A DNA stretch of 64,000 bases, from contig JAADGG010000060.1 of NCBI GenBank assembly GCA_013152485.1, positions 4,542 through 68,541 of the forward strand. The letters run 5' to 3'. The notes below the pieces were generated by a model that was not told where the DNA came from, searched no databases, and saw only the letters and a program-made list of their open reading frames with translations. The stretch comes from Nitrospirota bacterium. Lineage in GTDB: Bacteria > Nitrospirota > Thermodesulfovibrionia > Thermodesulfovibrionales > JdFR-85. Both the position numbers and the translations under genes were made by a program. Positions 29,190 through 39,824 of the stretch are shown piece after piece. Positions within the stretch are counted from its first letter, which is position 1, and the number at the start of each line of letters is the position of its first letter.

Positions 29190-29280
29190 ACATACATCTT
29201 GCATTGCTTATACTGACGTCGGTTGATTAAGACTCTTCTGGTTACTTTGAAAGCTCTTCAGGAGAATTCAAGGAGTTTAT

Positions 29281-29356
29281 GCGGGCGTAGCTCAGCTGGT
29301 AGAGCACAACCTTGCCAAGGTTGGGGTCGCGGGTTCGAATCCCGTCGCCCGCTCCA
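29281..29356 (+). tRNA. tRNA-Gly (anticodon GCC), CCA encoded
   Basis: Hand fold: acceptor GCGGGCG/CGCCCGC, D arm GCTC/GAGC, anticodon stem CAACC/GGTTG, loop TTGCCAA, T arm GCGGG-TTCGAAT-CCCGT. Confidence 0.9.
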
Positions 29357-29419
29357 TTTGAGAAAGAAACATCAGGACCGTACCAGGTCATGTGAATACC
29401 AGGCATGTCCCTGTTCTGC

Positions 29420-29495
29420 GGCGGCGTACCCAAGTGGCTAAGGGAGAGGTCTGCAAAACCTTTATGCGCCGGTTCGAATCCGGCCGCCGCCTCCA
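29420..29495 (+). tRNA. tRNA-Cys (anticodon GCA), CCA encoded
   Basis: Hand fold: acceptor GGCGGCG/CGCCGCC, anticodon stem GAGGT/ACCTT, loop CTGCAAA, T arm GCCGG-TTCGAAT-CCGGC. Confidence 0.85.
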
Positions 29496-29504
29496 ACACA
29501 ATGA

Positions 29505-29921
29505 TCACTCGCCTATGATCTTGACGAGCACCCTCTTTCTCCGCCTGCCGTCGAACTCACCGTAGAATATCTGCTCCCACGGGCCGAGGTCGAGTGCTCC
29601 GTCGGTCACGGCAACCACGACCTCCCTGCCCATTATCTGCCGCTTCATGTGGGCATCGGCATTGTCTTCACCGACATTGTGACGATACTGTGACACGGGC
29701 TCATGCGGAGCGAGCTTCTCGAGCCAGACGTCATAGTCGTGATGGAGTCCGGGCTCGTCGTCATTGATGAAGACAGAGGCCGTTATGTGCATGGCATTCA
29801 CCAGTACAAGCCCTTCCTTGATACCGCTCTCTCCTAAGCAGGCCACGACATCGGGGGTAATGTTTATGAAGGCCCTCCGGGTGGGCACTTCGAACCACAG
29901 CTCCTTGCGATAGCTCTTCAT
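29505..29921 (-). CDS. yjbQ: YjbQ/UPF0047-family protein
   Basis: 138-aa ORF behind AAGGAGGG. The sequence ([18 protein letters not shown]...NADAHMK...[16 protein letters not shown]) fits UPF0047. It is the last gene of the 33947->29505 operon. Confidence 0.8.
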
Positions 29922-29946
29922 ATGCCCTCCTTGTACTCGTCTGTTC

Positions 29947-31287
29947 TCACAGGCCGCCGAAAGTCTGCCAGTTGCATGCAGGACGGTCCCTCATGTAACC
30001 CTCCAGCCAGTCATATTGGGGGTGCTGCCGCAAAAAGGCCTTGGCGTCGAAAGGCATGCCGCAGGCGTGCCCCCAGCGGGCCTGAAAACTCATGTTTCCC
30101 GCCATGGTGGAATCGACGACCTTGCCGTCACCAGCCCCCCACGGATAATAAGGCCCCTGACCGGCATGACTGCCGTATCTTGCATCGTCGAGTTCGAGGT
30201 GTCCGCATATCGTCCGGCTGCAAGGATTATCCTGCTTCCGGAGATAGACGTCTCCGTGGTCTGCTATGATCTCCTTGGCCTGCTCGATATCGACGACCCG
30301 ACCTTCGAGCAGCTCCTTGAACCGCAGGCGGCGGGCACCGTTGTAACGGATGTCGGAATAGCTGTCGCCGCTGCACTCCTGGTTGCGGATCCTCAGGTCG
30401 GAAGCCACGTTGTAACCGCTGAAATAGCCGTCGTCCTTCTTTTCGTACCCGAGGTACCTCAAGCCCATCTCGATCCTCGCTATCTCTCCAGTTCTTATAT
30501 CACCTACGAGCCAGCTGCCGGCGTAACCACCGTTGTTGTTTCTCCACATCCTGTTCTTCCAGTCATCGATGCTCCTGGCATATTGAGATGCCTTGCGCGA
30601 GCGGTAAAACTCCGGCGCCCTGTTGTCGTCGAACCCTGAAAATCCGGAGATGGTGGTTTCGGCCACCACCAGTCCCGCCCCGGTTATCCACCAGTCTATG
30701 GTACTGGCGATATAGCCCGGAGGGGCCTGGAAGATCAGGCGATACCCCTCGGACGGCCGGACGTCCAGAATGATGTTGTAGTGATCCGAGGCTGCATATC
30801 TGTCCCAGCAGTTGTGGGCAAGCACGACGTTGCCGTCTGTGGTGGCTCCACCGGTGGCAATGAATGCACTGCAGCGGTGCGCATTCCTGAACCAGTGCGG
30901 CTGCGATCCGTTATACAGCGGCCACCAGGAACCGAGGAGATCCTGATATCCGTTCCAGGCCAGAATCTCCTCAAAGCTCGTCATGAAGCGGTTTGCACAG
31001 GCACCATCGGCGATGCCCTGAAGCTCCTGTGTGAATTCATCGTCGATATGCCGCGGAAAGAACTCGTTGGCTTTCTCGACGAAGAAGTCCCACTGCATCC
31101 CCGTATCCCATTCGGCAAGGAACCTGTTCACCCTTATGGCCTCTTTTATCTGGGAAGCCAGATGATAACCATGCTGAAAGCCGCGCTGGTAAGGTTCTCC
31201 CTCGATCCTCAGGTAGATCCAGCCGTCTCTTGCCTCGGGCTCTCCCCCTGTCAGGAGATCTCTGAATACAATACGGTTATCCGTCAT
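29947..31287 (-). CDS. Cys-nucleophile Ntn-hydrolase superfamily protein (peptidase C45 / phospholipase B-like)
   Basis: 446-aa ORF with no signal peptide. The N-terminal [11 protein letters not shown] resembles the C45 pro-region motif. [11 protein letters not shown]...VVLAHNCW...[29 protein letters not shown] parallels the CSALIK / LVAHNTW / SSYPG...GSGLV..ETTIG blocks of PLB-like proteins as I recall them. Confidence 0.65.
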
Positions 31288-31305
31288 GACATCTCCTGCT
31301 CTCCT

Positions 31306-33012
31306 TCAGCTTGCCAGCCTCCCATCGGCGATCTCCTCCAACTGTTTCACTCCGCGGCTCCAGGGAAGAAATCCGATATTGGAGGCCGTGGTATTGAACC
31401 TGATCTCGGAAACGTTGTTCCTGATTCCCTGCTCCTGGTAATACTGGTATGCCCTGCCGCCTACGGTATAGCACGGCGCATATCCTGGCTGGGACAGGAA
31501 CGTGAAACACTCACCATGCAGATACTCTTTACTTATCTGGGTCTTCATAGACGCCCAGTCCAGAAAGGCCGTATATGTCATCTTACCACCATTGACCTTT
31601 ACATCGCAGAGGGCCCTGACATACCGGATGATCCGCCATATGTATGTTTCGAATCCGGCTCCAAGTACGGCCTGTTCCTGTGCCTCGCGGGTATCACCGT
31701 AGAGTTCCAGATAGGCCTGCTGTACAGGATCGAGATTTCTTTTCCCCAGGAGATCTTGAGCTGCCTTCCAATACTGGTATTCACGGAAAAAGGCCATTCC
31801 CTCGGTCAACACCTCCAGGATCGGGGTAAACAGGTTCAGCAGCGGCGAACCCGCATGTTGAGCCGCCTTGACAAAGTTGAAACCATGCGACAACTCATGC
31901 ACTATGATATTGATCATGGTCAGCAGGGAGGCACTCTTGGAAGGGGTGAAATACAGGTTTGCCGAGGGATGATCCGTCAAATAATCAACCGCACGGTCCT
32001 CTCCGCCCGTCACCATCGATGCCAGGTACGAAGGCGTCTGCACCAGCGTCACATGGTCAGTGGAGTCGATACGTATGATATAGTCCGTGCCGAATGCATT
32101 GCTGACCGATACAACCTTCTCTGCAGCCGTTATCTCGTCTTTCACGGCATAGTATTCGCTTTGAGCCTTCCAGACCTCCTCTATCGAACTTCCCGCGGGT
32201 AACCCGAGCTTCTGCGCCATCTCCCCGGCGAGTGAAGACAAGACCGGCATTTCAGCATTCAGCAGGTCGGAGGCCATGTTTTCGATCTCTCCGGCTGTGA
32301 GACCGAGATTATACTGATCTTCCAGCAGGCCGGGATACCCCGGAGCAGGTTCCGGGGGCATCTCGTGTTCTGCAAACAGTTTCAGAAGTTCACCCGTATC
32401 CTTCGTATCGAGCCCTGGCTCATGGAAGACCTCTCTATAGGTGTTGATGCAGTCCACGACCTCATCACGTAGGACCGGCCGCTGCTTCCATCGTCCGTTC
32501 AGCGCCTCGAAACACCCCAGAAGGTACCCGGCTGCATCCAGGCATCCCCTCCTGGTCTCATAAGAGAAGTCCCTGCCCTGCCAGCGCGCGCTTTCGAAAC
32601 GCAGAAGTTCAATGACCCCGCACAGGTAGTCCTGCAGCCACTCGGGCTCGCCCTGTTCCTTTACAAGGATATAAAAAAAACCGTCTCCTGCTGCAGTGAC
32701 TCCTGCAGTCGGCCCCGTGTTCTCAAGGGAGCTCCGGAAGAGCGTCAGCAGACGATCGGCGCAAAACTGAAGGTCTTCAGAGGAAAACTTCCCTGAAATA
32801 TCCCTTCCGACCCTTTCAATGCCGGCATAAGCCGCCTGGAGATTCTCGGGCGTCTGAATAAAAAGCCCGGGAAGGCTGCTTCTGAATCCGGACGTATACC
32901 CCTTGACCGGAAACAGCTCCGCCCATAACTCGACGACTTCGTATGCAGCAGAATCCACTCTCCTCTCCTCCTGTCCAGCCCACCCGACGGCCCCCTTATG
33001 CCGGTCCGTCAT
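31306..33012 (-). CDS. DUF885-like HExxH metalloprotein (putative metallopeptidase)
   Basis: 568-aa ORF. HELSH is followed by EGMAFFRE, then WRIIRY..D...G.MT, QPGYAPCYTVGG and a C-terminal G.LPW. This is the DUF885 pattern as I recall it. Its ATG overlaps the upstream stop (ATGA at 33009-33012). Confidence 0.6.
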   Translation of the reverse strand: MTDRHKGAVGWAGQEERRVDSAAYEVVELWAELFPVKGYTSGFRSSLPGLFIQTPENLQAAYAGIERVGRDISGKFSSEDLQFCADRLLTLFRSSLENTGPTAGVTAAGDGFFYILVKEQGEPEWLQDYLCGVIELLRFESARWQGRDFSYETRRGCLDAAGYLLGCFEALNGRWKQRPVLRDEVVDCINTYREVFHEPGLDTKDTGELLKLFAEHEMPPEPAPGYPGLLEDQYNLGLTAGEIENMASDLLNAEMPVLSSLAGEMAQKLGLPAGSSIEEVWKAQSEYYAVKDEITAAEKVVSVSNAFGTDYIIRIDSTDHVTLVQTPSYLASMVTGGEDRAVDYLTDHPSANLYFTPSKSASLLTMINIIVHELSHGFNFVKAAQHAGSPLLNLFTPILEVLTEGMAFFREYQYWKAAQDLLGKRNLDPVQQAYLELYGDTREAQEQAVLGAGFETYIWRIIRYVRALCDVKVNGGKMTYTAFLDWASMKTQISKEYLHGECFTFLSQPGYAPCYTVGGRAYQYYQEQGIRNNVSEIRFNTTASNIGFLPWSRGVKQLEEIADGRLAS

Positions 33013-33947
33013 TCAGGTTTTGAGACTCCGCGTGCAGGGTCGGTTCCCTCCGGCCCCAGAAATCCCTGTTGATGCCTCGGGATCTCCGGCAGCGGGGATA
33101 AACCGAGGGCCTTTTCCCATTGGTCAATGCTCATGTACATCAAGTCGGAAGGCTGCCTGCCGGGAGGGATCGATCTCCTGGCGAGGGTGACGTAAGGTGC
33201 ACATGTCAGAGCGCAGCCCACATGATTCTCAGGCACATACAACAACCTGTAACCGGCAAACGTCTCTTTGTACCTTACTCCCTGATCTGCTCCGCAAAGC
33301 ACCACGCTATTGGTTATCTTTCTCAGCGTGCCGTCCAGAAAACCCGTCACTTCCTCATAATTCATGTCGGCAGGACAGGTGTTGGCGTCTTCAATGAAGA
33401 GATTTGCTCCGGAGGTCCGGTCGTCAAGTATGCTCAGAGCAATGGCCGACCAGACCCAGACCGGACCTTTCTTTGTTATGTCCTTGTTTGCGCAGATCAC
33501 ATGTGCTCCGGGCAAGGGATTGAAGCGCCTGTAAGCCTCCGTACCGAAGAGCCTCTGTGTTGCATCGAGCAGGGGATAGACGTTGTATACCGGGATGCTC
33601 GATCCATCCGGCAGGGGCTGGTTATAGAGAAGATTCCCCCGAAGGTTATCGGCTGACGCCAGGTCATACCCCCAGACGGCACCGTTGAGACCGCAGAAGG
33701 ATGAAGCCGTAAGCATGTTGATCTGACCGATGTAGGCATCGTTGGCCTCACAGCGGTCATAGGAGACTATCCCCTCTGTAACTTCATCGAGGTTTTCAAC
33801 CCTCACCATACCCACCGAGAGCTTGAGGGTGGAGATGTAACCGTTTCCAGAGGCTCCCGGATTCAGGTACCCCATGCAAAAATCGTCTTCACTCCCGACG
33901 GCTCCGTTTATCACCGCTGCGGGATCGTATGGATAGTTCGAGTTCAC
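33009..33947 (-). CDS. hdcA: Pyruvoyl-dependent histidine decarboxylase proenzyme homologue (HdcA family)
   Basis: 312-aa ORF with a GTG start behind AGAAGGAGGAA. Blocks GYLNPGASGNGYISTLKL, GIVSYDRCEANDAYIGQINMLTASSFCG, DGSSIPVYNVYPLLDA, PGAHVICANK, WSAIALS, LFIEDA and APYVTLARRSIPPG parallel Lactobacillus 30a HdcA as I recall it. This includes the Ser-Ser self-cleavage site (Ser82-Ser83 here). Confidence 0.8.
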   Translation of the reverse strand: MNSNYPYDPAAVINGAVGSEDDFCMGYLNPGASGNGYISTLKLSVGMVRVENLDEVTEGIVSYDRCEANDAYIGQINMLTASSFCGLNGAVWGYDLASADNLRGNLLYNQPLPDGSSIPVYNVYPLLDATQRLFGTEAYRRFNPLPGAHVICANKDITKKGPVWVWSAIALSILDDRTSGANLFIEDANTCPADMNYEEVTGFLDGTLRKITNSVVLCGADQGVRYKETFAGYRLLYVPENHVGCALTCAPYVTLARRSIPPGRQPSDLMYMSIDQWEKALGLSPLPEIPRHQQGFLGPEGTDPARGVSKPE

Positions 33948-34510
33948 AGTTCCTCCTTCTCTGTCTTACGGTTTCTTATTCAGCCTGAATAAATAATAGT
34001 AGAACAGGTTGCCGCCATCGCACATCTTCACCGTGCCGGACAGTTTCAGGAACAGGTGGCATCCCACGTCGTCCAGCATTTGGCATCAGCACTCCCGCGG
34101 TTGCAACTGTCCATACAAGGCCGTGCAGTTTGAAATGCAGCCGACATCCTGCCTGCCGCCGGGCAGGACAGAGATCTCCCTTTCCTCAAAATTCGGGGCC
34201 TGATGCACTGACAGCAACCTTGAACATCCCTGAAAGGTTGGGAGCCCGGGGGATCTTCCCGGGACTGTCCGAATCGATGATTCCAGACCGGTCGCCGTCG
34301 GTCTGCCCGGTCCTTACCTGACTGCCATGTGACATAACGAGCAGTCTCATGTTGCGGCGACACATGAGCCCATGTGCACCCTCGCCCGGTTCCAGTTCGT
34401 TCTCCACCGTCTCTCGATTGACCGTAACCCGACCAGACTACCTTGACCCAGGATTCAGACCCCCTCTCTGCAGCCCCGGACGTCCATTGCGGACCGTGCA
34501 CCGTTCCCGT

Positions 34511-34822
34511 CTATGTTTCACCTTCGCCTATCGGCTCGGAGCTGGTTCCCAGGAACGCCCTGCCGGCAGTAAAGTAGATATAGACGGGTTTCTCGTTCCT
34601 CAGCACATCGATTACGTTCTCGAACATTGCGGAAGGCAAATGCATCATGATTATTCCGCCGCTCTCATAGTCGTCCTCAAAGAACTGTCCCGGATCATTG
34701 AACCTGATCCAGGCCACAACCTTTCCGTTCGTGTCCTTCAACTGAATCTGGGCACGGTTGGTCTGGTACCCGGAAGGACTGCCGTAGAACAGAACACTGT
34801 AGCTGCCGATTGTGTGTGCCAT
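34511..34822 (-). CDS. Small protein of unknown function (103 aa), paralogue of 5446-5775
   Basis: The track ORF is trimmed to the ATG at 34822 behind the perfect SD AAAGGAGGAG. It aligns with the 109-aa protein at 5446-5775 (see there). Confidence 0.6.
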   Translation of the reverse strand: MAHTIGSYSVLFYGSPSGYQTNRAQIQLKDTNGKVVAWIRFNDPGQFFEDDYESGGIIMMHLPSAMFENVIDVLRNEKPVYIYFTAGRAFLGTSSEPIGEGET

Positions 34823-35202
34823 GATAGCTCCTCCTTTATTTGGATTCTCCGGTCGATTCCGGTACAAAAAAACCCTCTGTCGGCGCTGCTCACCTCCCGC
34901 CCCCTCACAGAGACGCCCAGCGCATCTCCCGCCTCTACACAGACTCGATTACAACGACCATCCCTAAACATTATACTGAAGCGGAACGAATATTGATGGT
35001 AAAAATACCTTTACAATTAGGACTGTCTCCGTGAAGCGCAAAAACACGACGCATCTGTGACGTTCCTGGGGACGTGAACCCGGATATCTCTCGGCGCTTT
35101 TTTCTCGGTCTCTCCGAATACGCGGCAATCAAACAAGAAAGTATCATCTTTGATCAGCTACAATATAACGGTGAAATCGTACAAACAGGATTGAGGCGGG
35201 GG

Positions 35203-36219
35203 ATGATCTTCAGCGGAGTGCCTGCACAGATTGTATTGGCCTTTTTAGTGGATTCGCTCATTGGGGACCCCAAGTGGATTCCACACCCCATAAGGTGTAT
35301 CGGCGAGTACATATCCTGGCTTGAGGACCGGGCGAGAAGGGTTTGCCACAGTCCTGCGGCTGAAAAGGTATCGGGAGGCGTGGTTGTTGCGGCTGTTGTG
35401 GGGTCAACCTATCTTGTAACTTATCTCTTTACTGAAACAGTATCCTCTGTATTCAGGAACGTCTCGATATTAAATATTGTCTCAGCAAATGATACAGTCA
35501 TTGCTATAGCCGGGTCCCTGACCATTGCACTCAGGGGGCTGAGGGAGTCTGCCGGAAACGTGCTTTCCGAGCTCAAACGGTCTGATCTTGACTCTGCAAG
35601 GGAACGGCTTGGACATATCGTCGGCAGGGATACGGAAGGGCTGGGCGAGGAGGGGATTTTGAGGGCAACGGTGGAGACACTTGCGGAAAACCTCTCGGAC
35701 GGCGTGATCGCACCGATGTTCTACTTTGCAATAGGAGGGTTGCCGCTTGCCATGGCATACAAGGCGGTGAACACCCTGGACTCCATGCTCGGCTACAGGA
35801 ACGAAAGATACATGAATTTCGGATATGCGGCTGCAAGACTTGACGATATGGTCAACTACATTCCTGCAAGGCTCACGGCCTGGACCATAGTATCCTCTGC
35901 AGCAGTGCTGTCACTCGTCGTGCGCAGGGTAAACCCCCTGAAGGCGGCACGGATCATGCTGCGCGATGGAAGAAAACACTCGAGCCCGAACGCGGGTCTG
36001 CCAGAGGCTGCCATGGCCGGAGCACTCGGCATCAGGCTCGGCGGACCTTCTTCTTACGGAGGAGTAGTACATGACAAACCGTTCATCGGAGAAGGCGGAC
36101 GTGAGATCGAACCTGCAGACGGAGCCATCGCAGACAGGATTACAGGGGTTGCAGGAGGCATGGGTATGATCTTGTGTGTGGCGCTTTCCGCTTCGATACA
36201 CAGGGTTCTGATCATGTGA
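35203..36219 (+). CDS. cbiB: Adenosylcobinamide-phosphate synthase (CbiB/CobD)
   Basis: LAFLVDSLIGDPKWIPHPIRCIG near the N-terminus and multiple TM segments. I prefer the ATG at 35203 behind GAGGCGGGGG. The track GTG at 35074 adds 43 atypical residues. Confidence 0.8.
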   Translation: MIFSGVPAQIVLAFLVDSLIGDPKWIPHPIRCIGEYISWLEDRARRVCHSPAAEKVSGGVVVAAVVGSTYLVTYLFTETVSSVFRNVSILNIVSANDTVIAIAGSLTIALRGLRESAGNVLSELKRSDLDSARERLGHIVGRDTEGLGEEGILRATVETLAENLSDGVIAPMFYFAIGGLPLAMAYKAVNTLDSMLGYRNERYMNFGYAAARLDDMVNYIPARLTAWTIVSSAAVLSLVVRRVNPLKAARIMLRDGRKHSSPNAGLPEAAMAGALGIRLGGPSSYGGVVHDKPFIGEGGREIEPADGAIADRITGVAGGMGMILCVALSASIHRVLIM

Positions 36220-36451: not shown

Positions 36452-37945
36452 TCAGCTTCTTCCCTCTGTCTTGTGACGTCCGGTCTTCCACGGCCTTGAA
36501 GCAATGATGAATGCGGCTATGAGTGTCAAGAGTATCCAGTCCCTGCCGATCAGGATGAGGGAAGTCCAGGAGTATCCACCGTAGGGCTTCCTGAGTTCGC
36601 TGTAGAGGTCTCCGACGAGAATTATACCGAGCACAAGCGGCACGAAGTACTTGATTATGATATCCCACCAGAAGCCGAGCTTTATGGTGGAGATCCTGTT
36701 GACATGCTGCCTCAGGACCTTTATCCTGAAGAACCATCCAACCAGTATGCATTCGAATATGCCAACGACGACCAGTCCGTAGTGGGTCAGAAAGTGGTCC
36801 ACTATGTCGAGCCACAGGAGCCCCGCCTGGGTGGTAAACATGACCGAGCCGCAGAATCCCATGATGGAGACAACGGTTATCAGGCGCTTCCGACTGATCC
36901 CGAACTTGTCGACCATTGCAGACGTGAACGCCTCGACGATGGATATGGAGGACGACAGGCCGGCGACCACGAGGCACAGGAAGAAGATGGCCCCGAATAT
37001 GTTGCCTCCCGGCATGAGGCTGACCGCCTTTGGGTATGCAACAAAGGCGAGTCCTATGCTTTGAGAGACGACGGCCGAGAGTGGCTCGCCCTGCGAGGCG
37101 GACATGAATCCGAGCACGGAGAAGACGGCGAATCCGGCGAACAGGGAGTATCCGCTGTTGATAAAGGCCGTCAGCAACGCCCCTTTCGTTATGTTCGCCT
37201 TCTCCGGGAGATAGCTCGCATAGGCTATCATGATCCCGAACCCGAGGCTCAGGGTGAAAAATATCTGGCTGTAGGCATCTATCCACACCTTCGGATCCGA
37301 GAGCCTGGAGAAGTCCGGGGTCAGATACGCTCGGACGCCTGACATCGCTCCCTCGAGCGTCAGGGACCAGAAGACGAGCACGGTGGTCAGGACGAAGAGG
37401 AGGGGCATGAATATCTTGTTGGCAAGCTCGATCCCACGCTGCACGCCCCTGTGAACGATGTACCAGTTTATGAACCAGATTACGAGGAGCGCAAAAAATA
37501 TGGGGGTCCTTATCTGTCCTATCTCTGCCGGAGAGTCACTGACCGCCAGGAACTTCTCGAAGAAGAAAGTGTTGGGGTCGCTACCCCAGCCGAGGTTGAA
37601 GGACAGGAGGAAGAAGTTGAGACACCATGCAACGATCACCATGTAGTAGAGCACTATGCCGAACATCACAAAAGTCACGGCCCACCACCCGAGCCACTCC
37701 CAGTTCTTCCTGATCTTGGCATAGGCGAGCGGGGCAGACCCGATACGCTCGTGACCGACGGCAAACTCGAGTATCAACAACGGTATCCCCGCGGTCAGAA
37801 GGGCGGTGAAGTAGGGAATGAGGAAGGCTCCACCTCCATAATTGTATGCCATATAGCTGAAGCGCCAGATGTTACCGAGCCCGATAGCGGAACCCACGGC
37901 AGCAAGCAAGAAACCGATCTGACTCTTCCACTGCTCCCTCTTCAT
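36452..37945 (-). CDS. Neurotransmitter:sodium symporter (NSS/SNF) family transporter
   Basis: 497-aa ORF with the N-terminal signature GFLLAAVGSAIGLGNIWRFSYMAYNYGGGAFLIPY and ~11-12 TM segments. It has an ATGA overlap with the aroK stop. Confidence 0.85.
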   Translation of the reverse strand: MKREQWKSQIGFLLAAVGSAIGLGNIWRFSYMAYNYGGGAFLIPYFTALLTAGIPLLILEFAVGHERIGSAPLAYAKIRKNWEWLGWWAVTFVMFGIVLYYMVIVAWCLNFFLLSFNLGWGSDPNTFFFEKFLAVSDSPAEIGQIRTPIFFALLVIWFINWYIVHRGVQRGIELANKIFMPLLFVLTTVLVFWSLTLEGAMSGVRAYLTPDFSRLSDPKVWIDAYSQIFFTLSLGFGIMIAYASYLPEKANITKGALLTAFINSGYSLFAGFAVFSVLGFMSASQGEPLSAVVSQSIGLAFVAYPKAVSLMPGGNIFGAIFFLCLVVAGLSSSISIVEAFTSAMVDKFGISRKRLITVVSIMGFCGSVMFTTQAGLLWLDIVDHFLTHYGLVVVGIFECILVGWFFRIKVLRQHVNRISTIKLGFWWDIIIKYFVPLVLGIILVGDLYSELRKPYGGYSWTSLILIGRDWILLTLIAAFIIASRPWKTGRHKTEGRS

Positions 37946-38472
37946 CCATCCCCTTTCAACTCGTCTATCCTTCTCAGGATCTCCTCTGCGATCTCCGCGG
38001 GGGAGAGGGCATCGGTCTCGACCACGATATCCGCGTTCTCATAGAAAGGCCGCCTGTAGGCGAGCAAGTCCCTTATCTTTTTCAGTGGATCATCCACGTT
38101 CAGGAGCGGCCGCTCGTCCGAGGTGCTCGTGCGTTTGTGAATGGTCTCGGGGGCCGCCTTGAGACAGACGATGATCCCGTTTTTCCTCAGGGCCGTCATG
38201 TTCTCGTCTCTCAGCACAACGCCTCCCCCGGTAGAGATAACAAGGTTGTCCTGCCCCGAAAACCTCTTCACCATATCAGTCTCCCTGTCACGGAAATAAG
38301 GCTCGCCGAAGCGGCTGAAGATCTCGTTTATGGTCAAGCCTTCGGCCTTTTCTATCTCCTCGTCGAGTTCGACGAGCCGCCTGCCGAGCCTCCGCGCCAG
38401 CTCCTGTCCCACCGCGGTCTTGCCCGTCCCCATGAATCCCGTAAGCACTATATTCTTCTTGAATCCGTGCAT
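37942..38472 (-). CDS. aroK: Shikimate kinase
   Basis: 176-aa ORF with Walker A GFMGTGKT, FRDRE and STGGGVV. Confidence 0.9.
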   Translation of the reverse strand: MHGFKKNIVLTGFMGTGKTAVGQELARRLGRRLVELDEEIEKAEGLTINEIFSRFGEPYFRDRETDMVKRFSGQDNLVISTGGGVVLRDENMTALRKNGIIVCLKAAPETIHKRTSTSDERPLLNVDDPLKKIRDLLAYRRPFYENADIVVETDALSPAEIAEEILRRIDELKGDG

Positions 38473-38633
38473 CTTCAGTTCCTCGAAAACCTGAAATCCA
38501 TGGCCGCCTCGAACACTGAACCGGCCCCACCGGCAACCATCATGTCACCCGGCCTCTCTCACGGCTGCCACCCGTACGGTTTGGCGAAACCGTGACCCGG
38601 TGCAAGATTATATCGGATTCGCGGAGAAACTGT

Positions 38634-39824
38634 CTACATATTCTCCAGGTAGCCCTCGTAGTTTCTCCTCGTCTCTTCCATGCTGTCCCCACCGAACTTC
38701 TCAAGAAATGCGTCGGCGATCACCAGAGACATGACGGCCTCTCCAATGACCGAGGCGGCAGGAACCGCACAGACGTCGGACCTTTCGTAGGCGGCCTCGA
38801 AGGGTTCACCCGAGACCGTGTCCACGGACCTGAGGGGCTTGCGCTGAGTCGGGATCGGCTTCATGGCCGCCCTGACCACCACGGGCATCCCGTTTGTCAT
38901 GCCCCCCTCTATACCGCCGGCATGATTGGTCTTTCTGAGTACCGAGCCGGTACGGCTCGATCCCGGTGCAGGAAAGATCTCGTCCATGACTTCCGAACCG
39001 GGCTTGTCTGCAAGCCCGAACCCGTCACCTATCTCAACCCCCTTTATGGCCTGAATCCCCATGAAGGCATGTGCAAGGCGGCTGTCGAGCCTCCTGTCCC
39101 ACTGGATATGGCTGCCGAGCCCGACGGGCAGGCCCTCTGCATAGACTATGAACGTACCCCCGAGAGAATAGCCTTCCGTCATCGCCTTCTCGATAGCCTC
39201 CCGCATTCTCGCTGCCGCGACATCGTCAGGACAGCGCACATCCGAGGCTTCCGCATCTGAAGAGAGTCTCTTCAGGTCCTCTGCCATCAGAGCGGAAGGC
39301 TCTATCCTCATCGCCGCCCCTCCGATGGCCGTGACGAACCCGCCGACGGTAATGCCGAGCTCCTCGAGAAACCGTCTGGCAACAGACCCCACAGCCACGC
39401 GCATGGCGGTCTCTCGCGCGGAGGACCTCTCGAGGATGTTCCTTATGTCATCCTGCCGGTACTTCTTCGCACCCGGCAGGTCGGCATGTCCCGGCCTCGG
39501 CCTTGTAACGGGAGGTACTGCGCCCTTGTCTTCCGACAGGGCGGACATGCCGGACTGCCAGTTCTCCCAGTCGCGATTCTCGATGTAGAGTGCAATCGGT
39601 GAACCGATCGTAAGGCCCCATCGTATTCCGGAAACGAACTCGACCCTGTCCGACTCGATCTTCATCCTTCCGCCGCGTCCGAAGCCAGACTGTCTCCTGC
39701 TGAGCTGACGGTCCACATACTCGGGCGTGAGCGGCAGGTTCGCCGGAATCCCCTCTATGATACCGGAGAGCCCCCTTCCATGGGATTCTCCCGCTGTAAG
39801 ATAACGCAACCTGAACATCTGCAA
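38634..39824 (-). CDS. aroC: Chorismate synthase
   Basis: 396-aa ORF with the N-terminal RYLTAGESHG, GRSSARETA and RSDVCAVPAA. Confidence 0.9.
   Translation of the reverse strand: MQMFRLRYLTAGESHGRGLSGIIEGIPANLPLTPEYVDRQLSRRQSGFGRGGRMKIESDRVEFVSGIRWGLTIGSPIALYIENRDWENWQSGMSALSEDKGAVPPVTRPRPGHADLPGAKKYRQDDIRNILERSSARETAMRVAVGSVARRFLEELGITVGGFVTAIGGAAMRIEPSALMAEDLKRLSSDAEASDVRCPDDVAAARMREAIEKAMTEGYSLGGTFIVYAEGLPVGLGSHIQWDRRLDSRLAHAFMGIQAIKGVEIGDGFGLADKPGSEVMDEIFPAPGSSRTGSVLRKTNHAGGIEGGMTNGMPVVVRAAMKPIPTQRKPLRSVDTVSGEPFEAAYERSDVCAVPAASVIGEAVMSLVIADAFLEKFGGDSMEETRRNYEGYLENM

What the first reader, a model, noticed from the sequence alone, without database searches (positions are those of the whole stretch)
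33009..33947. HdcA-family proenzyme retains the residues I recall as the histidine-binding and catalytic set, but sits in a non-Firmicute-like genome without hdcB/hdcP
Seen: GIVSYDR, the self-cleavage motif TASSF (Ser82-Ser83, codons at 33699-33704), LFIEDA and APYVTL..SIPPG are all present. Established, from my memory of the Lactobacillus 30a enzyme: Ile/Tyr/Asp of the GIVSYDR block and Phe/Glu of the FVEDA block line the substrate pocket, and serinolysis between two Ser residues makes the pyruvoyl group. Inference: this is probably an active pyruvoyl decarboxylase, and histidine is the most likely substrate. Its codon usage looks somewhat richer in T-ending codons (ggt, gat, aat, tat) than neighbouring core genes. 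I could not quantify that difference, but it would fit horizontal acquisition next to the tRNAs.
Basis: partly seen in the sequence, partly recalled or inferred. Interest (0 to 1): 0.6.

Follow-up and report, generated by a model that had tools for sequence, protein, structure and literature searches.

The report
Histidine decarboxylase in a peptidase operon
The gene is a real, probably active histamine-forming enzyme of the pyruvoyl type. In this Nitrospirota genome it lacks the usual exporter and maturation partner and instead heads a three-gene operon with two uncharacterised hydrolases, a cassette that recurs across many phyla and has not been described in the literature I could search.

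Summary
ORF 33009-33947 (-) is a 312-aa PF02329 protein (E 1.4e-78). It has the TASSF Ser82-Ser83 site and every pocket residue of the Lactobacillus 30a enzyme. Its predicted fold matches 1PYA (TM 0.79, rmsd 1.9 A).

The contig is from a Nitrospirota MAG, and the 64-kb window holds no hdcB or hdcP homologue.

The horizontal-transfer argument from codon usage is weak (T3 z +1.6, rank 7 of 44). Phylogeny shows a separate environmental clade, not one nested in Firmicutes (100/100 bootstrap).

hdcA overlaps by 4 nt a 568-aa DUF885-like HExxH metallopeptidase, and a C45 Cys-Ntn hydrolase follows.

The DUF885-like family is tiny: 131 representatives among 1.84 billion. Seeded from it, 18 of 20 loci with enough flank carry a pyruvoyl decarboxylase, either HdcA-type or PSD/PsiD-type. 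The other two are decayed copies. Nearly all also carry an S10 carboxypeptidase, sometimes fused, or the C45 enzyme in its place.

Best reading: a cytosolic cassette in which hydrolases release histidine that HdcA converts to histamine. The enzyme identity is well supported. The pathway logic is inference.

The enzyme is a new member of a known kind. The cassette is a new variant.

The parts
33009..33947 (-). hdcA: pyruvoyl-type histidine decarboxylase proenzyme, 312 aa. Predicted beta chain is res 1-82 and alpha chain res 83-312. GTG start.
   Evidence: ORF. PF02329 E 1.4e-78. PDB 1hq6/1pya match. AF2 model matches 1pya_B at TMt 0.79, rmsd 1.9 A. Pocket residues conserved.
33699..33704 (-). 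Codons of Ser82-Ser83 (TCA TCC) in TASSF: the predicted serinolysis site that yields the pyruvoyl group on the alpha chain.
   Evidence: Read directly from the sequence. Aligned with Ser81-Ser82 of L30a. S82 is invariant and S83 nearly invariant in 27 homologues.
33952..33958 (-). AAGGAGG ribosome-binding site, 4 nt upstream of the GTG start of hdcA.
   Evidence: Sequence read.
31306..33012 (-). DUF885-like gluzincin, 568 aa, with no signal peptide. Its ATG overlaps the hdcA stop by 4 nt (33009-33012), which suggests translational coupling.
   Evidence: ORF. Weak PF05960 hit. AF2 pLDDT 91.4. Foldseek 3o0y/3iuk/3u24 TM 0.62-0.68, then ACE. Only 131 representatives in 1.84e9 proteins.
31885..31899 (-). 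Codons of the HELSH (HExxH) zinc-binding motif, His372-His376, of the DUF885-like protein. The putative third ligand Glu404 lies at 31801-31803.
   Evidence: H372, E373, H376, G377 and E404 are invariant in 23 family members.
29947..31287 (-). C45 / phospholipase-B-like Ntn-hydrolase proenzyme, 446 aa. It starts 18 nt after the stop of the DUF885-like gene. The predicted nucleophile is Cys139 (codon 30871-30873).
   Evidence: NCBIfam NF040521 scores 132.4 against a cut-off of 85. PF04916. PLBD1/2 structures 4bwc and 3fbx, with RCSAF aligned to SCSAL. C139 invariant.
34046..34372 (-). Frameshifted remnant of a small gene upstream of hdcA. The gene is intact as a 124-aa ORF in the related MAG locus L001 (1507-1881). 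In the window it is spread over three reading frames.
   Evidence: DNA alignment. tblastn pieces fall in frames +2, +3, +1 and +2. No Pfam or PADLOC hit.
34511..34822 (-). Small ORF of unknown function, about 103 aa from the ATG at 34822, with an AAAGGAGGAG ribosome-binding site. It lies upstream on the same strand and is probably not part of the cassette.
   Evidence: ORF. Sequence read. No Pfam, NCBIfam or PADLOC hit. No homologue in any fetched locus.

Best explanation
hdcA encodes a self-processing pyruvoyl-dependent L-histidine decarboxylase. The proenzyme is expected to cleave between Ser82 and Ser83, leaving a pyruvoyl group at the N-terminus of the alpha chain. That group forms a Schiff base with histidine. 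Asp64 (L30a Asp63) and the new beta-chain C-terminus hold the imidazole, and Glu186 (L30a Glu197) protonates the intermediate, giving histamine and CO2.

Here the enzyme is not part of a histidine/histamine exchange system. It is the first gene of a tricistronic, apparently cytosolic operon: hdcA, then a DUF885-like zinc peptidase, then a C45 Cys-Ntn hydrolase. This is one variant of a three-gene cassette with the general form [pyruvoyl decarboxylase] + [DUF885-like] + [S10 serine carboxypeptidase or C45]. The cassette has spread horizontally through many bacterial phyla and one archaeal lineage.

The most likely logic is that the two hydrolases release free histidine from the C-terminus or an amide linkage of a short peptide or conjugate, and HdcA then turns it into histamine inside the cell.

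Shown: family, fold, catalytic residues, operon structure, co-occurrence. Inferred: substrate, activity, order of reactions.
For: Enzyme:
- Family, sequence and fold matches.
- Ten pocket or catalytic positions are invariant in 17 cassette-linked, 29 antiporter-linked and 3 Firmicute reference sequences. Published roles of Ser81/82, Ile59, Tyr62, Asp63 and Asp53/Asp198 are summarised in PMC8465708.

Operon:
- 4-nt overlap and 18-nt gap between the three genes.
- The same three genes recur in L084, L100 and L113.

Cassette:
- In the 27 loci seeded by the DUF885-like protein, 18 of 20 with enough flank carry HdcA or a PSD/PsiD-type decarboxylase.
- The two exceptions are decayed: an HdcA C-terminal remnant in L092 and a truncated S10 in L082.
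- Two natural DUF885-like+S10 fusion proteins exist.
- No other gene is shared by the loci across phyla.

Why hydrolases that supply a free amino acid:
- S10 enzymes are carboxypeptidases.
- The DUF885-like model has the closed ACE-like gluzincin fold, with HExxH and Glu conserved.
- None of these proteins has a signal peptide.
- The decarboxylase type was swapped at least twice on the DUF885-like tree, as expected if one reaction is needed.
- A 34%-identical relative of the DUF885-like protein sits beside urocanase and an amidohydrolase, which is histidine/imidazole catabolism.
Against: - No biochemical data exist for any member of this HdcA clade.
- The protein scores below the NCBIfam equivalog cut-off.
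- Free histidine is already present in the cytosol, so dedicated peptidases seem unnecessary unless the substrate is a specific conjugate, and none is identified.
- No transporter or regulator is conserved with the cassette, so the fate of the histamine is unknown.
- S10 and C45 enzymes both form acyl-enzymes and could instead acylate histamine.
- Other distant relatives of the DUF885-like protein sit in unrelated contexts, with kinase and radical-SAM genes, so the urocanase link may be coincidence.
- The clade-specific C-terminal tails of HdcA are not explained.
Confidence: 0.45

Rival explanations
1. Amine conjugation or deconjugation. HdcA makes histamine, and the S10 or C45 enzyme, both of which work through a covalent acyl-enzyme, transfers an acyl or peptidyl group onto the histamine amine, or hydrolyses such an amide. 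The DUF885-like peptidase prepares the acyl donor. The product would be an N-acyl or peptidyl histamine.
For: - S10 and C45 replace each other in the third position, and what they share is acyl-enzyme chemistry.
- The C45-family enzyme Tan of Drosophila hydrolyses beta-alanyl-histamine (PMC1285064).
- In six Rhodobacteraceae loci the gene directly upstream of hdcA is a Tgl-type transglutaminase, PF20085. That enzyme class links primary amines to glutamine side chains.
- A GNAT acetyltransferase precedes the decayed module in L082.
Against: - No acyl-donor-forming enzyme (ligase, CoA-dependent enzyme, carrier protein) is conserved in the cassette.
- The window's C45 belongs to a very large, mostly stand-alone family annotated only as phospholipase/C45, and it is not shown to be close to Tan.
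- Bacterial S10 enzymes acting as transferases are not established.
Confidence: 0.2
2. The hydrolases act on the decarboxylase itself, as maturation, tail-trimming or turnover factors. They would be functional counterparts of HdcB, PanZ or PrdH, which are encoded next to other pyruvoyl enzymes.
For: - Dedicated maturation factors next to pyruvoyl enzymes are well documented: HdcB is annotated in L108 and L109, and PrdH and PanZ papers appear.
- hdcB is absent here and in all 107 non-Firmicute loci.
- The cassette pairs with two unrelated pyruvoyl-enzyme folds, which share the self-cleaving proenzyme property.
- Cassette-rich HdcA clades carry conserved, probably disordered C-terminal tails (QGFLGxxG...YGV or PDVGGIGVP), which carboxypeptidases could trim.
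Against: - Hydrolysis at the Ser-Ser bond would give an N-terminal serine, not a pyruvoyl group, so peptidases cannot carry out the maturation chemistry.
- The PSD/PsiD-type partners have quite different C-termini, such as lectin-like domains.
- Bacteroidota HdcAs with the same tail (L002-L004) have an antiporter and no DUF885-like gene.
- L30a HdcA is known to self-process without help (my own knowledge).
Confidence: 0.12
3. An ordinary acid-stress or energy-generating histidine decarboxylase, as in lactic acid bacteria and Bacteroides. Its antiporter would be encoded elsewhere in the genome, and the neighbouring hydrolase genes would be functionally unrelated.
For: - 28 of 80 genome loci with HdcA homologues have an APC-family transporter next to hdcA. 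Such clusters are the published model (PMC8465708).
- The nearest outgroup to the window's lineage (Bacteroidota L002-L004) has that arrangement.
- Only 64 kb of the genome was inspected.
Against: - The link between DUF885-like proteins and pyruvoyl decarboxylases holds in 18 of 20 assessable loci, and in the other two as decayed remnants, across phyla.
- The genes overlap.
- Fusion proteins exist.
- Cassette loci lack an adjacent transporter.
Confidence: 0.1

Closest known systems
Pyruvoyl-dependent histidine decarboxylase HdcA of Lactobacillus 30a / L. reuteri / Tetragenococcus (hdcP-hdcA-hdcB-hisS loci; PDB 1PYA, 1HQ6)
   Same: Same Pfam family. Same Ser-Ser cleavage site in the (T/L)TASSF context. 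The same ten pocket or catalytic residues. Same predicted fold.
   Different: - Only 35-37% identical over aligned columns.
- On the other side of a 100%-bootstrap split.
- Below the TIGR00541 equivalog cut-off.
- No hdcP, hdcB or hisS nearby.
- Carries six clade-conserved cysteines and a C-terminal tail of about 20 aa.
Non-Firmicute hdcA + antiporter (aaxC/gadC) clusters predicted in Bacteroidota, Actinobacteriota, Fusobacteriota, Verrucomicrobiota and Proteobacteria (Mou et al. 2021, PMC8465708)
   Same: The same large environmental and gut branch of the family. Bacteroidota members are the closest relatives outside the window's lineage, at 71-74% identity.
   Different: That survey required an adjacent antiporter, so cassette-type loci like this one were excluded by design. 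Here two hydrolase genes take the antiporter's place.
PSD/PsiD-type pyruvoyl decarboxylases (PF12588+PF02666; PsiD is the tryptophan decarboxylase of psilocybin synthesis, PMC11929908)
   Same: They occupy the same slot as HdcA in sister cassettes beside the DUF885-like and S10 genes, for example in Pedobacter nototheniae. They also use the pyruvoyl mechanism.
   Different: Unrelated fold. Their substrate in bacteria is unknown. None is present in the window.
DUF885 proteins of solved structure (3O0Y, 3IUK, 3U24) and ACE-like M2 gluzincins
   Same: Same overall helical closed-channel fold (TM 0.62-0.68) and an HExxH...E metal site.
   Different: Sequence similarity is marginal: PF05960 scores 19.5 bits, below the 32.4 cut-off, and the profile has no PDB sequence hit. 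The window's protein has no signal peptide, whereas two of the solved DUF885 structures are described as putative lipoproteins. None of these proteins has a known function.
C45 autoproteolytic Ntn hydrolases/acyltransferases (isopenicillin-N acyltransferase, Drosophila Tan) and phospholipase-B-like proteins PLBD1/2
   Same: Passes the NCBIfam C45 proenzyme model. An invariant Cys is aligned with the PLBD2 residue that I take, from my own knowledge, to be its nucleophile. Tan acts on a histamine amide (PMC1285064).
   Different: Closeness to Tan or IAT was not tested. The family has more than 5000 members, mostly outside any decarboxylase context.

Membership tests
Pyruvoyl-dependent histidine decarboxylase (PF02329 / TIGR00541, EC 4.1.1.22) | Significant match to the Pfam family model over its full length | tested here: met
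   264.5 bits against a cut-off of 25. Profile positions 12-293 of 294 are matched.
Pyruvoyl-dependent histidine decarboxylase (PF02329 / TIGR00541, EC 4.1.1.22) | Score above NCBI's equivalog (same-function) cut-off | tested here: not met
   253.6 bits against a cut-off of 346.65. The model is presumably tuned to Firmicute-like sequences (my inference). This result lowers certainty about identical function, not about family membership.
Pyruvoyl-dependent histidine decarboxylase (PF02329 / TIGR00541, EC 4.1.1.22) | Ser-Ser serinolysis site that generates the pyruvoyl group | tested here: met
   TASSF with Ser82-Ser83 is aligned to Ser81-Ser82 of L30a.
Pyruvoyl-dependent histidine decarboxylase (PF02329 / TIGR00541, EC 4.1.1.22) | Histidine-pocket and catalytic residues (L30a Ile59, Tyr62, Asp63, Glu66, Phe83, Lys155, Phe195, Glu197; pH bridge Asp53/Asp198) | tested here: met
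   All are identical in the window's protein and invariant in the 17 cassette-linked sequences. The roles of Ser81/82, Ile59, Tyr62, Asp63 and Asp53/198 are cited from PMC8465708; the roles of the other residues are from my own knowledge.
Pyruvoyl-dependent histidine decarboxylase (PF02329 / TIGR00541, EC 4.1.1.22) | Fold of the solved enzyme | tested here: met
   The AF2 model (pLDDT 80.3) matches 1pya_B at TMt 0.79 and rmsd 1.9 A over 215 columns.
Pyruvoyl-dependent histidine decarboxylase (PF02329 / TIGR00541, EC 4.1.1.22) | Self-cleavage and formation of histamine from L-histidine | not testable with these tools
   Needs recombinant protein, SDS-PAGE or mass spectrometry, and an amine assay.
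Canonical hdc histamine-export locus (hdcP/hdcC antiporter, hdcB, hisS) | Adjacent histidine/histamine antiporter and HdcB maturation protein | tested here: not met
   tblastn with reference proteins from three Firmicute plasmids finds nothing in the 64-kb window: best E 0.04 for HdcB and 0.06 for HdcP.
DUF885 (PF05960) / gluzincin metallopeptidase | Pfam gathering score | tested here: not met
   19.5 bits against a cut-off of 32.4.
DUF885 (PF05960) / gluzincin metallopeptidase | Fold of solved DUF885 proteins, plus an HExxH motif and a downstream Glu | tested here: met
   Foldseek E 5e-11 to 6.5e-8, TM 0.62-0.68. H372, E373, H376 and E404 are invariant.
C45 autoproteolytic Ntn hydrolase/acyltransferase | NCBIfam subfamily model and a conserved Cys nucleophile | tested here: met
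   NF040521 scores 132.4 against a cut-off of 85. Cys139 is invariant in 12 sequences and aligned with the PLBD2 Cys, which I take from my own knowledge to be its nucleophile. Autoproteolysis itself is not testable here.

The most novel reading that the evidence does not exclude
The DUF885-like gluzincin and its S10 or C45 partner form the stable core of a previously unrecognised, horizontally mobile cytosolic pathway that always recruits a pyruvoyl amino-acid decarboxylase. Because HdcA-type and PSD/PsiD-type enzymes have replaced each other in this slot at least twice, the bacterial PSD/PsiD-type members would be a third, unrecognised structural class of histidine decarboxylase. The cassette would then define a new route from a His-containing peptide or conjugate to histamine, or to a histamine amide, in environmental bacteria and archaea.
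Probability: 0.3. Interest if true: 0.7.

Novelty: new variant of a known kind. Interest (0 to 1): 0.55.

Why it matters
Pyruvoyl histidine decarboxylases are studied almost only as part of decarboxylase/antiporter systems in food and gut bacteria. This window shows the same catalytic machinery in a different setting. The setting is a transporter-less cassette with two hydrolases of unknown function. It is found in Nitrospirota, Chlorobi, Desulfobacterota, Actinomycetota and Thermoplasmatota (HdcA-type cassettes), in Bacteroidota (Pedobacter, PSD-type) and, in decayed form, in Roseibium.

The finding gives three things:
- A first functional handle on a rare DUF885-like family.
- A testable prediction for the substrate of bacterial PsiD-like decarboxylases.
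- A caution for surveys that count histamine producers from PF02329 hits alone, or that discard hits lacking an antiporter.

Tried and rejected
- Riboswitch or other RNA in the 560-nt gap upstream of hdcA: Rfam at E<=1 found only the two tRNAs and sub-threshold noise. The conserved stretch is instead a frameshifted coding remnant.
- Promoter and terminator scan of 29200-35200: no more sites than in shuffles.
- Anti-phage defence reading: no PADLOC hit for any cassette protein, apart from one marginal hit on a PSD-type protein.
- hdcB-like function for the 118-aa upstream ORF: no family hit, no similarity to HdcB or to the L001 small ORF, and no homologue in any locus.
- Codon usage as evidence of transfer: quantified and not significant.
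- A shared C-terminal recognition tail on HdcA and PSD-type partners: rejected, because their C-termini are unrelated.
- Sequence-profile search of the DUF885-like family against the PDB: nothing. Only the fold comparison worked.
- Literature searches combining DUF885, carboxypeptidase, pyruvoyl and PsiD: no description of the cassette.
- Sisterhood of the two cassette-rich HdcA clades: only 6% bootstrap support, so a single origin of the association on the HdcA tree is not claimed.
Full report
**1.

The minus-strand ORF 33009..33947 encodes 312 aa from a GTG start. An AAGGAGG ribosome-binding site precedes it. The Ser82-Ser83 codons lie at 33699-33704.

- Pfam PF02329 matches at E 1.4e-78 over nearly the whole model.
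- Both chains of the Lactobacillus 30a enzyme (1PYA, 1HQ6) match, at 1e-30 and 8e-15.
- The protein is identical to an NCBI entry from a Nitrospirae/Nitrospirota MAG.
- It falls short of the NCBIfam equivalog cut-off, with 253.6 bits against 346.65. It is therefore a divergent member of the family.

**2. Catalytic set and fold**

I aligned 91 family members and read the columns in L30a numbering. Ile59, Tyr62, Asp63, Glu66, Ser81, Ser82, Phe83, Lys155, Phe195 and Glu197 are all identical in the window's protein. They are invariant in every context group. Asp53 and Asp198 are also kept.

The roles of Ser81/82, Ile59, Tyr62, Asp63 and Asp53/198 are summarised in PMC8465708. An AlphaFold model (pLDDT 80.3) superposes on 1pya_B with TM 0.79 and rmsd 1.9 A. 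The last ~20 residues have low confidence.

Histidine is therefore the best-supported substrate. This remains an inference from residue conservation.

**3. No hdcB and no hdcP**

I took reference HdcP, HdcA and HdcB proteins from annotated plasmids of L. reuteri, T. halophilus and S. capitis. Only HdcA finds a match in the window. The best hits for HdcB and HdcP have E 0.04 and 0.06. HdcB has no homologue in any of the 107 non-Firmicute loci fetched up to that point.

**4. Phylogeny and transfer**

The family is large and spans many phyla. More than 1000 clusters were found. They include Bacteroides, Chlorobium, cyanobacteria, Acidobacteriota, Rhodobacteraceae, actinomycetes, Chlamydiota and archaea. 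A published survey already reports pyruvoyl hdcA with antiporters in six phyla.

In a bootstrapped neighbour-joining tree:
- The Firmicute enzymes, one Fusobacteriaceae sequence and one metagenomic sequence are split from all others: 100/100.
- The window groups with two close relatives: 100.
- That group then joins Bacteroidota sequences: 96.

So the gene does not nest inside Firmicute HdcA. The tree conflicts with organismal relationships, which indicates horizontal spread.

Codon usage does not add to that case. T3 z is +1.6 and GC3 z is -1.5. The gene ranks 7th of 44, and cbiB next door is more deviant. The cbiB-hdcA arrangement is shared with the related MAG locus L001.

**5. The operon**

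hdcA overlaps by 4 nt a 568-aa ORF (31306..33012). Eighteen nucleotides after that ORF comes a 446-aa ORF (29947..31287).

*The 568-aa protein.* It scores only marginally on DUF885. Its AlphaFold model (pLDDT 91.4, pTM 0.90) matches the three solved DUF885 structures at TM 0.62-0.68, and more distantly angiotensin-converting enzyme. HExxH and a downstream Glu are invariant.

*The 446-aa protein.* It passes the NCBIfam C45 proenzyme model. It resembles phospholipase-B-like Ntn hydrolases. Its invariant Cys139 sits at the position I take to be the nucleophile.

I saw no signal peptide on either protein (for the DUF885-like protein; the ORF translation for C45).

**6. The cassette is conserved**

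The DUF885-like family is very small. Only 131 of 1.84 billion representative proteins match at E<=1e-3, and all carry the name 'hypothetical'.

I seeded searches with this family and fetched 27 loci.
- 18 carry a pyruvoyl decarboxylase close by. Eight are HdcA-type and ten are PSD/PsiD-type (PF12588+PF02666). One example of the latter is the cultured Pedobacter nototheniae.
- Seven are cut at the contig end, where the decarboxylase would lie.
- The two remaining exceptions are decayed. L092 keeps a 34-aa remnant of the HdcA C-terminus. L082 has a truncated S10 gene.

Nearly all of these loci also carry an S10 serine carboxypeptidase without a signal peptide. Two metagenomic proteins are DUF885-like+S10 fusions.

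In the window's own lineage (window, L084, L113) and in L100, C45 replaces S10. No other gene is shared across phyla.

On the tree of the DUF885-like proteins, the PSD-type partners appear in two separate places. One cassette carries a deep-branching HdcA. The decarboxylase has therefore been exchanged repeatedly around a stable hydrolase core.

**7. Mechanistic reading**

Enzyme identity is well supported; I estimate about 0.8. For the cassette as a whole I favour substrate supply. A closed-channel gluzincin and a C-terminal exopeptidase or amidase would release free histidine from a short peptide or conjugate. HdcA would then decarboxylate it in the cytosol.

A possible further hint is that a 34%-identical relative of the DUF885-like protein lies beside urocanase and an amidohydrolase. 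Other relatives sit elsewhere, next to kinase and radical-SAM genes.

The rival readings are:
- **Amide formation or hydrolysis on histamine.** S10 and C45 share acyl-enzyme chemistry. The C45 enzyme Tan cleaves beta-alanyl-histamine (PMC1285064). A transglutaminase gene sits directly upstream of hdcA in six Rhodobacteraceae loci.
- **Action on the decarboxylase protein itself.** This would be by analogy with HdcB, PanZ and PrdH, and might involve the clade-specific tails. It is chemically unsuited to pyruvoyl formation, and the PSD-type partners do not show comparable tails.
- **Coincidental neighbours of an ordinary acid-stress enzyme.** The co-occurrence statistics contradict this.

**8. 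Novelty**

The enzyme alone is a new member of a known kind and is already annotated as such. The hydrolase-linked, antiporter-less cassette, and the interchange with PsiD-like decarboxylases, were not found in the searchable literature. They amount to a new variant.

The neighbour-joining trees, the heuristic ORF calling in the fetched loci, and the modest number of loci all limit the strength of the comparative claims.

Noticed in passing
window 34046-34372 (-); L001 1507-1881: The 560-nt gap upstream of hdcA holds a remnant of a 124-aa gene. The gene is intact in a related MAG and ends ...GADANYWTTWDAICS. In the window it is broken across three reading frames, either as a pseudogene or through assembly errors. 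It has no family hit and no homologue in other loci.
   Followed up: partly
L052, L054, L057, L070, L071, L072 (gene ending about 20-60 nt upstream of hdcA, e.g. L071 8660-9949): In Rhodobacteraceae (Palleronia, Puniceibacterium, Roseibium) and in one alphaproteobacterial MAG, hdcA is directly preceded by a Tgl-type protein-glutamine gamma-glutamyltransferase (PF20085). A large regulator of about 1260 aa lies nearby. This hints that histamine is used as a transamidation substrate.
   Followed up: partly
L087, L089, L093, L094, L095, L099, L101 (C-terminal ~120 aa of the PSD-type genes); protein P0052: Many cassette PSD/PsiD-type decarboxylases carry a conserved C-terminal domain (GGLWTANP...NNGNLY...INDDL...GQI.VSI). 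By eye its sequence looks like a lectin-type domain; I did not scan it against any family library. One HdcA homologue (P0052, 439 aa) is fused to a jacalin domain, PF01419.
   Followed up: no
L114 6001-11169; L115 932-6100: A 34%-identical relative of the DUF885-like protein sits in a row with urocanase, an Amidohydro_1 enzyme, several methyltransferases and HD-CE domain proteins. This may be a cluster for catabolism of an imidazole compound.
   Followed up: no
L023 6794-10972: A gammaproteobacterial MAG has a PSD/PsiD-type decarboxylase, a distant S10-like gene and HdcA in a row, with no DUF885-like gene. Both decarboxylase types occur in one locus.
   Followed up: no
L008, L012-L015, L019, L026 (e.g. 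L014 10915-11544): In Bacteroides, hdcA is followed by a pyruvoyl arginine decarboxylase (PF01862) and an APC antiporter. This matches the published aaxB/antiporter/hdcA arrangement.
   Followed up: yes
window 36452-39824 (-): A sodium:neurotransmitter symporter family (SNF) transporter is encoded in a row with shikimate kinase and chorismate synthase. That is an unusual pairing of an amino-acid transporter with aromatic biosynthesis genes. It is separated from the hdcA operon by the oppositely oriented cbiB gene.
   Followed up: no
window 35074-36219 (+): cbiB has the most atypical codon usage of the 44 ORFs tested (GC3 0.571, z -2.75; likelihood z -3.2). It is more deviant than hdcA, although it is a core cobalamin gene with conserved synteny in L001.
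   Followed up: no
HdcA res ~290-312 (window 33009-33080); loci: Two HdcA clades carry conserved C-terminal tails, QGFLGxxGxxxxYGV and PDVGGIGVPxGEA. Firmicute, Bacteroides and Chlamydiota enzymes lack them. Their function is unknown, and they are not strictly tied to the DUF885-like neighbour.
   Followed up: partly
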